DNA of 62,345 nt, counting the filler, from Collodictyon triciliatum (lineage: Eukaryota), in assembly GCA_043381765.1 (NCBI GenBank). It is 28 parts of 28 records of this genome, joined end to end, with 100 filler letters (N's around TTAATTAATTAA, not from the genome) between each part and the next. Parts side by side here need not be neighbours in the genome. Positions count along the whole stretch, not along the records: positions 60,224 to 62,345 come from JBHJMP010009465.1; 27 more parts are not named here. The stretch is one strand, 5' to 3'. Below are positions 60,243-61,212 of this stretch, piece after piece (the first letter of the stretch is position 1; each line of letters begins with the position of its first letter). The position numbers and the translations under genes were made by a program. Below the pieces are notes generated by a model. That model was not told the origin of the DNA, did not search any database, and was given only the letters and a program-made list of their open reading frames with translations.

Positions 60243-61212
60243 CGAAAAAATATAGCTGGAGTGGACTCAGGCAAGTTTAATTTTGTTTGCATGGTGGATG
60301 GGACAGATGAGAAATTACGTTACACGGCACACCGAACAAGACATGATAGTAAATCTCTTAAATCACAAAATACTCTTGCACAAGAAAAGAAAAGTACAAT
60401 TATCCAGGGATATGCATGACAATATATTTACAAAGTGCTATTTCTTTTGGTCACATGACTTTTGAAGAGAATCAGCAGTTTGAGGTATCAAGAGTATCTT
60501 TAATCGATTTAGAGACAGAACTGAGTAAACATAATTTATGCCCAGTCGATTATGAAAAAAATTCGAAAATATGTATCTATGAAATCAAGATACCAGATAG
60601 AATTATCCAGATTTTATGAACACGTTACTTTTCGAAAGATGAGATGGAGACAGTATGTTCATACAAAAAGAAGTGAACAATTGTTTATGGACCGAATCGA
60701 AAAGACATTTGGGCAAGGATGTTGTACTGGCATATGGGGACTGGAGCAGAAAATGTCAGATGAAACATTTCATGCCAACAATTGGAGGAGGATTACGAAA
60801 AATACTATCCAAACGTTTTGAAGCAGTTAGTGTAGATGAATTTAGAACATCCAAGATGTGCTGCAACTGCGAAAAAGAATTTGAATATATGAAACCGAAA
60901 GGAAATACAAAAAAGTTGTATAGATGTCTCATATGTAGAGAATGCAATTGCTCAGAAAGCAAAAAAAGTGTATTCTTGACAAGGGACTTTAACAGCACTA
61001 AAAATAAACTCAATAAAGTTCGTTCACTCCTTCAAAAAATGTATACACCTTCCTCTAAAAAAAATAGGCTGTTAGGTCTTTCCCCTGGTAGCCTTCACCA
61101 CTACACAATCTTTGTGAAAAAAGTGGGGACACCTTGGATACTAGCGGACCAGGTTTACAAATCTTTCGATTGGTATGCCCCTTCTAGTATATTGCAAAGT
61201 ATTCTACATTAA
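60243..61212 (+). mobile_element. Fanzor (Fanzor1-type, TnpB-like RNA-guided endonuclease), C-terminal two-thirds, split over four reading segments
   Basis: RuvC-I IAGVDSGK (D 60264-60266); LRYT; ETELSKHN..VDYEK; FYEHVTFRKMRW..YVHTKRSE; VLAYGDWS..MKHFMPTIGGGLRK; VDEFRTSKMCCNC (E 60838-60840); C..C zinc finger; TRDFNSTKN (D 60985-60987). Confidence 0.9.

What the first reader, a model, noticed from the sequence alone, without database searches (positions are those of the whole stretch)
60243..61212. Fanzor RNA-guided endonuclease hidden across four reading frames
Seen: four consecutive segments give VDSGK (RuvC-I Asp, missing from the ORF track), FY...FRKMRW..YVHTKRSE, YGDWS...PT.G.GLR, VDEFRTS-CxxC...CxxC and TRDFN, in the right order. 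Established: this order, with the Glu in DEFRTS next to the zinc finger, is typical of eukaryotic/giant-virus Fanzor1 proteins, TnpB-derived omega-RNA-guided nucleases. Inference: this protist carries a possibly uncharacterised Fanzor family. Sharing a contig with an intron-containing USP gene places it in nuclear DNA rather than a contaminant. The N-terminal REC/WED part is cut off by the contig end.
Basis: partly seen in the sequence, partly recalled or inferred. Interest (0 to 1): 0.85.

Follow-up and report, generated by a model that had tools for sequence, protein, structure and literature searches.

The report
Broken, truncated Fanzor1 nuclease gene copy
This is a real but dead and cut-off copy of a Fanzor1 gene (a eukaryotic relative of the bacterial RNA-guided nuclease TnpB) on a tiny unplaced contig of an intron-bearing eukaryote, so it is an ordinary decayed transposon relic, not a working new nuclease.

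Summary
The fragment is clearly Fanzor1. Its last ORF hits a 648-aa protein, P0001, at E 3e-45 and the solved Parasitella Fanzor1 at E 1e-7. P0001 hits three solved Fanzor1 proteins at E 2e-28 to 4e-23.

The frame changes are not introns. They are four small indels in A or G runs, which contigs from other public runs mostly lack. Only the C-terminal ~290 residues are present. The rest is lost at the start of a 2,122-base piece of a scaffold built by joining small contigs with artificial spacers.

The same piece carries a universal stress protein (USP) gene with a GT-AG intron, which favours cellular eukaryotic DNA. The element is multi-copy in other runs: 156 and 167 contigs laid. Its relatives are very common on giant-virus contigs: 322 of 383 IMG/VR candidates. 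There they form ~2.4-kb inverted-repeat elements with a conserved, structured 3' RNA-like block.

No guide RNA could be shown in the window itself.

Verdict: a decayed new member of a known kind. Interest is low to moderate.

The parts
60124..60223 (.). Artificial spacer (N44-TTAATTAATTAA-N44) between two unplaced contigs. Nothing to its left is physically linked to the finding.
   Evidence: 27 identical spacers across the window, separating pieces of about 2.12-2.15 kb.
60224..60242 (+). Start of the 2,122-base piece. It opens with an A run, followed by a short remnant of the upstream Fanzor coding region in a different frame. A TAG at 60240-60242 closes frame 0. A fifth frame break near 60251 is possible.
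   Evidence: sequence. table 7: other copies align from 60232 and continue upstream with different, coding-like sequence. The frame reading here is my own inference.
60243..60362 (+). Frame piece 1: RuvC-I strand, IAGVDSGK. The catalytic Asp is at 60264-60266. The motif reads D-S-G, not the usual D-P-G.
   Evidence: (PF01385, E 0.02, below the cut-off). In one search, 60267 reads G instead of T in nearly all laid copies.
60363..60363 (+). Break 1: the window lacks two bases (A run after 60359) that other copies have.
   Evidence: table 4: 'AA' or 'GA' put in behind 60359. X1: 47.4 of 120.5 depth. X2: 78.7 of 103.1. X4: 2.34 of 2.34.
60364..60384 (+). Frame piece 2: seven codons that match the relatives only in this frame.
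   Evidence: alignment to P0001.
60385..60385 (+). Break 2: the window lacks two bases after 60384 (A-rich run).
   Evidence: table 4: 'AA' put in behind 60384. X1: 31.2 of 113.6. X2: 61 of 90.2. X4 record 25 is identical to the window here.
60386..60559 (+). Frame piece 3: an insertion shared only with P0001, then the helical part up to ...VDYEK.
60560..60560 (+). Break 3: one extra A in the A run at 60555-60561.
   Evidence: table 4: one base left out at 60555 or 60561. X1: 153.6 of about 230 depth. X2: 83.9 of about 115. X3: 12.2 of 33.8. X4 record 25 is identical to the window here.
60561..60713 (+). Frame piece 4: ...SRFYEHVTFRKMRWRQYVHTKRSEQLFMDRIEKTFG.
60714..60714 (+). Break 4: one extra base at GGG/C, 60711-60714.
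   Evidence: table 4: one base left out at 60711 or 60714. X1: 222.3 of about 265-300. X2: 234.2 of about 340-535. X3: 11.6 of 11.6. X4: 2.97 of 2.97.
60715..61212 (+). Frame piece 5: the AYGDWS strand (canonical Glu position replaced), the alternative Glu at 60838-60840, a zinc finger (CxxC at 60859-60870 and 60925-60936), the RuvC-III Asp at 60985-60987, a C-terminal tail, and the stop at 61210-61212.
   Evidence: (PF07282, E 0.0055, below the cut-off).
61092..61127 (+). Weak partial match to the first hairpin of the 3' RNA-like element of the giant-virus relatives. It sits at the homologous position but is not significant.
   Evidence: 9.9 bits, E 0.16. An unrelated site at 62126-62197 scores 10.1 bits.
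61170..61225 (+). Approximate right end of the repeated element. Similarity to other copies stops here.
   Evidence: table 2: depth falls to 8.8-15.8 at 61169-61203 and to 0 from 61204 in all four runs.
61266..61393 (.). AT-rich stretch with a long (ATT)n microsatellite between the Fanzor relic and the USP gene. The assembly join across it is unverified.
61581..61689 (-). Last exon of a universal stress protein (USP) gene, including its stop codon.
   Evidence: PF00582 Usp, E 1.2e-4, profile positions 118-141 of 141, just below the cut-off (23.1 bits against 24)..
61690..61972 (-). 283-base GT...AG intron of the USP gene. The reading phase is kept across it.
   Evidence: sequence read on the minus strand, with the splice sites identified by eye.
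61973..62148 (-). Preceding USP exon (...GKAVVLGSHGYTATE). Its upstream boundary is inferred from an AG at 62150-62149.
   Evidence: Scanned alone, this exon gave no Pfam hit at E up to 1.

Best explanation
The stretch 60233-61212 (+) is the 3' part, about 290 of about 650 codons, of one copy of a multi-copy Fanzor1 transposable element in the DNA of an AT-rich, intron-bearing eukaryote.

An intact element of this family would encode a roughly 620-650-aa RNA-guided RuvC endonuclease. Its catalytic triad is the Asp in the D-x-G strand, the alternative Glu six residues before the zinc finger, and the Asp in TRD(F/L)N. By analogy with studied Fanzors and with the giant-virus relatives examined here, the guide (omega/re) RNA would be transcribed from the 3' end of the gene and the right transposon end.

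This particular copy is dead. It carries four frame-breaking indels in homopolymer runs, two 2-base losses and two 1-base gains. It has lost the Pro of the DPG motif. Everything upstream of RuvC-I is missing because the assembly broke inside the repeat. It sits tail to tail, about 370 bases from the end of a USP gene.

Shown here: the homology, the motifs, the breaks, the multi-copy status, and the family's abundance on giant-virus contigs. Inferred: RNA guidance, mobility, and that the breaks are real mutations and not assembly errors.
For: Homology:
- The last ORF finds 20 proteins (E <= 1e-3) among 449 candidates. The best is P0001: 648 aa, E 3e-45, 63% identity.
- The same ORF hits solved Fanzor1 structures: PpFz1 E 1e-7, SpuFz1 0.005, GtFz1 0.009.
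- P0001 hits GtFz1, PpFz1 and SpuFz1 at E 2e-28, 3e-24 and 4e-23. Nothing else scores below E 0.38.
- The AlphaFold model of P0001 has seven Foldseek hits at E <= 1e-3, all Fanzor1 chains (E 1e-17 to 5e-16, TM 0.50-0.58). The next hit is at E 0.59.

Motifs:
- The Asp in DxG, E-x6-CxxC-x18-CxxC and the Asp in TRDFN are all present. They match the Fanzor signature in PMC10711439.

Breaks:
- Homology to P0001 runs straight through each break, with no missing or extra residues. This leaves no room for introns.
- At all four sites, contigs from other runs carry the frame-preserving length (table 4).
- A 266-base lake-metagenome contig (X4 record 25) is identical to the window across breaks 2 and 3 (table 8).

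Multi-copy status:
- 156, 167, 24 and 4 contigs from four runs were laid at >= 80% identity, spread across all identity classes.

Eukaryotic setting:
- A USP exon and a GT-AG intron lie on the same piece.
- Polyubiquitin and Sin3-like ORFs occur elsewhere in the assembly (recognised by eye).
Against: - All four breaks lie in A or G runs, where assemblers and some sequencing chemistries err.
- Inside the five pieces there is not a single stop codon in 325 codons. For a long-dead gene in an AT-rich genome that is unexpected, so the breaks are either young or partly artefacts.
- 51 of 62 family-invariant columns are kept. That loss is no worse than in the most divergent intact relative, P0019, which keeps 62 of 79.
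- X4 may not be independent of the assembly's source sample.
- No guide RNA or transposon end could be demonstrated in the window.
- The whole genome is not held, so I did not measure copy number or look for intact copies in this organism.
- The Pfam hits of the pieces are below the gathering cut-offs, and NCBIfam gave nothing for any of the 4 pieces.
Confidence: 0.8

Rival explanations
1. The gene is intact in the organism. The four frame changes are homopolymer errors of the assembly, and the truncation is only an assembly break, so this would be a live Fanzor1 gene.
For: - All four breaks are in A or G runs.
- There is no internal stop in 325 codons, and the catalytic D, E and D are retained.
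- The piece is a tiny unplaced contig, which suggests low assembly quality.
- Most laid copies have the frame-preserving length at breaks 3 and 4.
Against: - X4 record 25 reproduces the window exactly across breaks 2 and 3.
- A sizeable share of the depth in X1 and X2 also carries the window's state at each site (table 4).
- Two of the breaks are 2-base losses in short runs, which is an unusual error type.
- There is a TAG at 60240-60242 and a frame change at the 5' edge.
- The Pro of DPG is lost, and 9 further family-invariant columns are substituted.
Confidence: 0.12
2. The piece is giant-virus DNA, either a contaminant or an endogenised viral fragment, and not a transposon resident in host chromosomes.
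For: - Relatives are abundant on giant-virus metagenome-assembled contigs. 322 of 383 IMG/VR candidate stretches are relatives, on contigs up to 255 kb.
- One relative is filed in UniRef under 'viral metagenome'.
Against: - A USP gene with a 283-base GT-AG intron, plus microsatellites, share the piece.
- The window and P0001 form their own pair (SH-aLRT 100) on a long stem, apart from the two IMG/VR clades. This is a quick tree with an unresolved backbone.
- 156-167 diverged copies in single-organism runs fit a genomic repeat better than a virus.
- A scan of viral contigs with P0001 alone found no relative among 36 candidate stretches.
Confidence: 0.06
3. The frame changes are biological decoding signals, either small introns or programmed or transcriptional slippage, that yield a full protein.
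For: - Fanzor genes of eukaryotes can contain introns (PMC10530073, abstract and passages).
- A-run slippage is used by some bacterial insertion sequences (recalled, not checked here).
- A 74-base GT...AG interval at 60394-60467 could join frame 0 to the next frame (my own reading).
Against: - Homology continues codon by codon on both sides of every break, with no spare sequence for an intron.
- The shifts differ in direction and size: two of -2 and two of +1.
- Related copies simply have the in-frame run lengths.
Confidence: 0.02

Closest known systems
Fanzor1 RNA-guided endonucleases with solved structures: Spizellomyces punctatus SpuFz1 (8gkh), Guillardia theta GtFz1 (9cer), Parasitella parasitica PpFz1 (9cf0)
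   Same: - Significant sequence similarity, for both the window ORF and its full-length relative.
- The relative's predicted fold matches only these chains.
- The active-site layout is the same: Asp in DxG, the canonical Glu strand replaced by GDWS, the alternative Glu in (V/I)(D/N)EFRTS six residues before the CxxC...CxxC finger, and the final Asp (PMC10711439).
   Different: - Identity is only about 18-21% in the structural alignment.
- The window copy lacks the whole REC/WED half and is frameshifted.
- Neither a guide RNA nor activity is shown.
Fanzor1 elements on giant-virus (Nucleocytoviricota) metagenome contigs, such as loci L001-L080 and UniRef A0A6C0CSH1 'Transposase, viral metagenome'
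   Same: - Same protein family: 39-48% identity to the window read-through.
- Same length class. 141 of 160 loci encode 620-639 aa.
- Same motifs. DPG is present in 156 of 160 loci, and TDG, the alternative Glu and the final Asp are invariant in alignment A1.
   Different: - The viral copies are intact. They lie in roughly 2.38-2.40-kb elements with roughly 31-33-bp terminal inverted repeats, seen in 34 of 160 loci by a strict pattern.
- They have a conserved, covarying 3' RNA-like block.
- The window copy shows none of this significantly. It also branches apart with P0001 and sits next to an intron-bearing cellular gene.
Prokaryotic TnpB (IS200/IS605 and IS607 OrfB; Pfam PF01385 and PF07282)
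   Same: - RuvC fold with an inserted zinc ribbon.
- Weak Pfam hits to both TnpB domains, in the right order.
   Different: - The hits are below the Pfam cut-offs.
- The Glu is in the alternative position, not the canonical one.
- The relatives are about 640 aa with Fanzor1-type N-terminal domains.
Decayed Fanzor1 copies reported in other eukaryotes, such as CMe-1A of Cyanidioschyzon merolae
   Same: A frameshifted, non-functional copy of a Fanzor1-bearing transposon in a protist genome.
   Different: A different host and a different Fanzor1 lineage. No sequence comparison was made here.

Membership tests
Fanzor1 | Significant sequence similarity to experimentally characterised or solved Fanzor1 proteins | tested here: met
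   - Window ORF 60643-61212: PpFz1 E 1e-7, SpuFz1 0.005, GtFz1 0.009.
- Closest full-length relative P0001: E 2e-28, 3e-24 and 4e-23, and no Fanzor2, TnpB or Cas12 chain listed at E <= 10.
Fanzor1 | RuvC-I catalytic Asp in a D-x-G strand | tested here: met
   GVDSGK, with the Asp at 60264-60266, aligns to the invariant D364 of the family.
Fanzor1 | Pro in the DPG motif ('near exclusively DPG in Fanzors', PMC10711439) | tested here: not met
   - The window has D-S-G.
- Nearly all laid copies read G at 60267, giving D-A-G.
- Relatives have DPG in 156 of 160 loci.
- The authors treat this as a near-universal signature, not an absolute rule, and they also searched for D-notP-G forms.
Fanzor1 | Alternative RuvC-II Glu six residues upstream of the first CxxC, with the canonical Glu position substituted | tested here: met
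   E (60838-60840)-FRTSKM-CCNC. The canonical strand reads AYGDWS. Definition taken. This feature is shared with Fanzor2 and some TnpBs.
Fanzor1 | Zinc finger (CxxC...CxxC) followed by the RuvC-III Asp | tested here: met
   CCNC-x18-CLIC, then TRDFN with the Asp at 60985-60987. The cysteines and the Asp are invariant in alignment A1.
Fanzor1 | Fanzor1-type WED (TDG motif) and REC domains | not testable with these tools
   - This part is missing from the window. Homology begins at P0001 residue 358.
- In the relatives, TDG (312-314) is invariant.
- The N-terminal half of the P0001 model is confident and matches Fanzor1 structures.
   The model of P0001 has mean pLDDT 63.8, and its RuvC region (residues 356-648) is mostly below 60. 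No coordinates are returned, so distances could not be measured.
Fanzor1 | Conserved structured guide (omega/re) RNA at the 3' end of the gene, running to the transposon end | tested here: inconclusive
   - Giant-virus relatives: 20 predicted pairs, 11 of them with compensatory changes.
- Window: no nhmmer hit at the 3' end.
- Covariance model: only 9.9 bits, E 0.16, partial.
- RNAfold z-score -1.29. Rfam gave nothing relevant.
Fanzor1 | Location inside a eukaryotic transposon (terminal repeats, target-site duplication, or an associated transposase) | not testable with these tools
   - The left end is absent from the contig.
- The right end is located only approximately, by the loss of similarity.
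- No transposase lies on the piece.
- The genome is not held.
Functional Fanzor nuclease gene | Uninterrupted full-length reading frame | tested here: not met
   Four frame breaks, a TAG at 60240-60242, and about 357 N-terminal residues missing.

The most novel reading that the evidence does not exclude
The window copy and P0001 represent a separate, compact (about 650 aa) Fanzor1 lineage. It would have amplified to a hundred or more copies in a group of freshwater protists after exchange with their giant viruses, and it would still include active RNA-guided nucleases with their own guide RNA and target-adjacent motif. The window shows only a dead member of it.
Probability: 0.3. Interest if true: 0.45.

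Novelty: new member of a known kind. Interest (0 to 1): 0.28.

Why it matters
Fanzors are the eukaryotic RNA-guided nucleases now being developed for genome editing, and their natural role is unknown. This copy adds one more host lineage and a distinct branch, window plus P0001, next to a very large giant-virus-borne clade. That bears on gene flow between giant viruses and their protist hosts. It also points to intact P0001-type relatives as candidates for testing.

The copy itself is truncated and broken, so it has no direct functional or practical value. Fanzor1 genes in protists and giant viruses, often in many copies, are already in print (PMC10432273 and PMC10530073, passages read).

For annotation, the practical lesson is that this scaffold is a string of unrelated small contigs. 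Gene neighbourhood across its spacers means nothing.

Tried and rejected
- Whole-genome search for other copies: no genome is held for this window.
- NCBIfam scan of the four ORF pieces: 0 of 4 hit.
- Pfam scan of the pieces: only sub-threshold TnpB-domain hits, plus one spurious Telomerase_RBD hit.
- The local Pfam copy did not return the precomputed PF26935 label for 5 relatives. I cannot name that family.
- Viral-contig scan with P0001 alone: 36 candidate stretches, none a relative. The alignment-based scan succeeded.
- Guide RNA in the window: nhmmer with the giant-virus 3' block gave no hit at the element's 3' end; its best hits were elsewhere, at E 1.3 or worse. The covariance model R1 gave a partial hit at E 0.16, equalled by an unrelated site. 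A single-sequence fold gave z -1.29, with 20 of 200 shuffles folding as well. Rfam gave one irrelevant hit at E 0.73.
- Expression: no RNA holder is listed. X1 and X2 are only guessed to be RNA.
- Habitat: the word shares in freshwater and lake runs were small (0.06-0.12). After laying, X3 and X4 hold short pieces, including one identical 266-base contig. I draw no firm habitat claim from this.
- Introns as the cause of the frame changes: rejected, because homology is continuous across every break.
- D-E-D geometry: the model was too weak in the RuvC half.
- Careful phylogeny: not finished within the time limit, so only the quick tree is reported. Of 75 IMG/VR proteins, 9 were kept after k-mer thinning, and loci L081-L160 were left out.
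- Search for near-length relatives: 9 hits among 16 candidates, best 70-77% identity, none identical. This gave no view of other copies in this assembly.
- Earlier notes of this scan: none for this genome or this sequence.
They may list this host or this lineage.

Full report
**What the window is.**
The 62,345-base window is not one contig. It contains 27 identical spacers (44 N, TTAATTAATTAA, 44 N) separating pieces of about 2.12-2.15 kb in roughly descending size. This is the usual look of unplaced small contigs strung together. The finding lies on the last piece, 60224-62345 (2,122 bases). Only features on that piece can be treated as neighbours. No whole genome is held for the window, and this scan has no earlier notes on it.

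**The observation.**
- IAGVDSGK, with the Asp at 60264-60266.
- FYEHVTFRKMRWRQYVHTKRSE.
- AYGDWS...PTIGGGLRK.
- VDEFRTSKM-CCNC, then 18 residues, then CLIC.
- TRDFN, with the Asp at 60985-60987.

tblastn of the closest full-length relative (P0001) against the whole window finds only this place. It gives two matches, E 4e-46 and 2e-26, covering P0001 residues 358-639. About 357 N-terminal residues are absent.

**What family it belongs to.**
- Pfam gives only sub-threshold hits, but to the two TnpB domains in the right order. PF01385 hits the first piece (E 0.02) and PF07282 hits the last (E 0.0055). NCBIfam gives nothing.
- A search for longer proteins with the last ORF returned 20 hits among 449 candidates. 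Most are 560-660 aa, and the full range is 347-861 aa. The best is P0001 (648 aa, E 3e-45, 63% identity). 19 of the 20 carry a precomputed Pfam label, PF26935. One is a UniRef 'Transposase' from a viral metagenome.
- Against all solved structures, P0001 matches only Fanzor1 proteins: Guillardia theta (E 2e-28), Parasitella parasitica (3e-24) and Spizellomyces punctatus (4e-23). The next hit is at E 0.38.
- The window's own last ORF matches the same three (1e-7, 0.005, 0.009). Its VDEFRTS aligns to IDEFRTS, LDEYKTS and VPEHYTS.
- An AlphaFold model of P0001 built on 15 relatives has mean pLDDT 63.8. The N-terminal half is good and the RuvC half is poor. It has seven Foldseek hits at E <= 1e-3, all Fanzor1 chains (E 1e-17 to 5e-16, TM 0.50-0.58).
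- The published signature of Fanzors is DPG at RuvC-I and a Glu six residues before the zinc finger in place of the canonical Glu (PMC10711439, passages read; PMC10530073, passages read). The family meets it: DPG, TDG, the alternative Glu and the final Asp are invariant in alignment A1.
- The window meets it too, except that the Pro is replaced. It has D-S-G, and nearly all other laid copies read D-A-G.

**Why the gene runs through several frames.**
Contigs of four public runs were laid on 60224-61260. At four places they carry small length differences from the window:
- Two bases more after 60359.
- Two bases more after 60384.
- One base fewer in the A run at 60555-60561.
- One base fewer at GGG/C, 60711-60714.

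With X placed at these four breaks, the five pieces give 325 residues that align to P0001 without any gap at the breaks. Identity is 61% (175 of 287) to P0001 and 39-48% to 14 other relatives. There is therefore no room for introns. The frame changes are indels. All lie in A or G runs, so assembly error must be considered.

Evidence against assembly error:
- One lake-metagenome contig (X4 record 25, 266 bases) is identical to the window across breaks 2 and 3.
- A sizeable share of the depth in X1 and X2 carries the window's state at each site.

Evidence for a young lesion or an error:
- There is no stop codon inside any piece.
- 51 of 62 family-invariant columns are kept. The most divergent intact relative, P0019, keeps 62 of 79.

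At the 5' edge the frame has a TAG (60240-60242), and the few codons before it match relatives in another frame. That last point is my own reading. I put 0.8 on a real decayed copy and 0.12 on an intact gene spoiled by assembly errors.

**Copy number and context.**
- The four runs gave 156, 167, 24 and 4 laid contigs at 80-100% identity, spread over all identity classes. The element is therefore a diverged multi-copy repeat in at least two coded organisms, and it occurs in freshwater and lake metagenomes.
- Other copies continue upstream of 60232 with coding-like sequence. The window's contig stops there after a short A run. This is what happens when an assembly breaks inside a repeat.
- Similarity to other copies ends at about 61170-61203, close to the stop codon at 61210-61212. 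The right end of the element is there.
- Downstream come an (ATT)n microsatellite and, on the minus strand, the end of a universal stress protein (USP) gene. Its last exon is 61689-61581 (Pfam Usp, E 1.2e-4). A 283-base GT...AG intron that keeps phase lies at 61972-61690, preceded by the exon ...GKAVVLGSHGYTATE.
- Elsewhere in the assembly are polyubiquitin and Sin3-like ORFs (recognised by eye).
- Together these favour cellular eukaryotic DNA. The caveat is that the join across the microsatellite is unverified.

**Relatives on giant viruses.**
- A profile scan of IMG/VR found 322 relatives among 383 candidate stretches, many on giant-virus metagenome-assembled contigs of up to 255 kb. The metagenome scan found 509 among 598.
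- In the 160 loci kept, 156 encode DPG, and 141 encode proteins of 620-639 aa.
- Their nucleotide conservation runs from the last roughly 100 bases of the gene, through the stop codon, to a sharp boundary.
- RNAalifold predicts 20 pairs there, 11 of them with compensatory changes.
- In 34 of 160 loci (a strict pattern, so a lower bound) the same roughly 31-33 bases occur inverted about 415-440 bases upstream of the gene. This defines elements of 2.38-2.40 kb that carry only the Fanzor gene.
- This fits the published picture in which the terminal repeat forms part of the Fanzor1 guide-RNA scaffold (PMC10711439).
- In a quick tree, the window plus P0001 form a pair (SH-aLRT 100) on a long stem, outside the two IMG/VR clades. 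The backbone is unresolved. The tree used 9 of 75 IMG/VR proteins, and L081-L160 were left out.

**Guide RNA in the window.**
I could not show one.
- An nhmmer profile of the viral 3' block finds nothing at the window's 3' end.
- A covariance model built from 32 viral sequences gives only a partial hit at the homologous place, 61092-61127 (9.9 bits, E 0.16). An unrelated site scores the same.
- The single-sequence fold is unremarkable (z -1.29). Rfam has nothing relevant.

**How it most likely works.**
An intact member would be an RNA-guided, single-RuvC DNA endonuclease carried by a small DNA transposon. Its guide would be transcribed from the gene's 3' end and the right end of the element, as shown experimentally for other Fanzor1s (PMC10432273 and PMC10711439, passages read). 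For this copy, homology and motifs are shown. RNA guidance and mobility are inferred. The copy itself is non-functional.

**Novelty and verdict.**
Fanzor1 genes in protists and giant viruses are already published, often in many copies per genome: up to 122 copies, and 3,655 unique sequences in one survey (PMC10530073; PMC10432273). Dead copies have been seen before in this scan. This is a new, decayed member of a known kind, on a somewhat separate branch. Interest is low to moderate. The useful leads are the intact P0001-type relatives and the giant-virus element family.

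Noticed in passing
window 1-62345: The window is a chain of about 28 unplaced contigs of about 2.1 kb, joined by 27 N44-TTAATTAATTAA-N44 spacers in roughly descending size. Many pieces begin or end in mini- or microsatellites. Gene neighbourhood across a spacer is meaningless.
   Followed up: yes
L001-L160 (e.g. L009, L010, L033): The giant-virus relatives sit in compact elements of about 2.38-2.40 kb, bounded by inverted repeats of about 31-33 bp and carrying only the Fanzor1 gene. 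The right repeat is part of a conserved 3' block with covarying helices (20 pairs, 11 compensatory). This looks like a very abundant non-autonomous Fanzor1 transposon of freshwater giant viruses. Target-site duplications and the mobilising transposase were not found.
   Followed up: partly
window 60267 and 60359-60714: Nearly all laid copies read D-A-G at the RuvC-I motif, where the wider family has D-P-G. A sizeable share of contig depth in runs X1 and X2 shares the window's frame-breaking states. Much of this eukaryotic repeat family may therefore descend from already defective copies.
   Followed up: partly
window 61158-61170: A small hairpin (AATC-loop-GATT) has loop TTTC in the window. 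In a freshwater-metagenome copy (X3 loose end at 61157) the loop is GAAA, its reverse complement.
   Followed up: no
window 34709-35389 (+) and 37901-40124 (-), on other pieces: Long arrays of cysteine-rich repeats (CxECPxGTWN...SCxSCPxGxF...) on at least three separate small contigs. This is a large repeat-protein family that probably also breaks the assembly.
   Followed up: no
window 20061-20579 (-) and 51261-52753 (-): A polyubiquitin ORF fused to a low-complexity (QDSSK)n stretch, and Sin3-like paired-amphipathic-helix exons. Both were recognised by eye and are consistent with a eukaryotic nuclear genome that uses the standard code.
   Followed up: no
window 59697-59773: A T run of about 77 bases on the preceding piece.
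   Followed up: no
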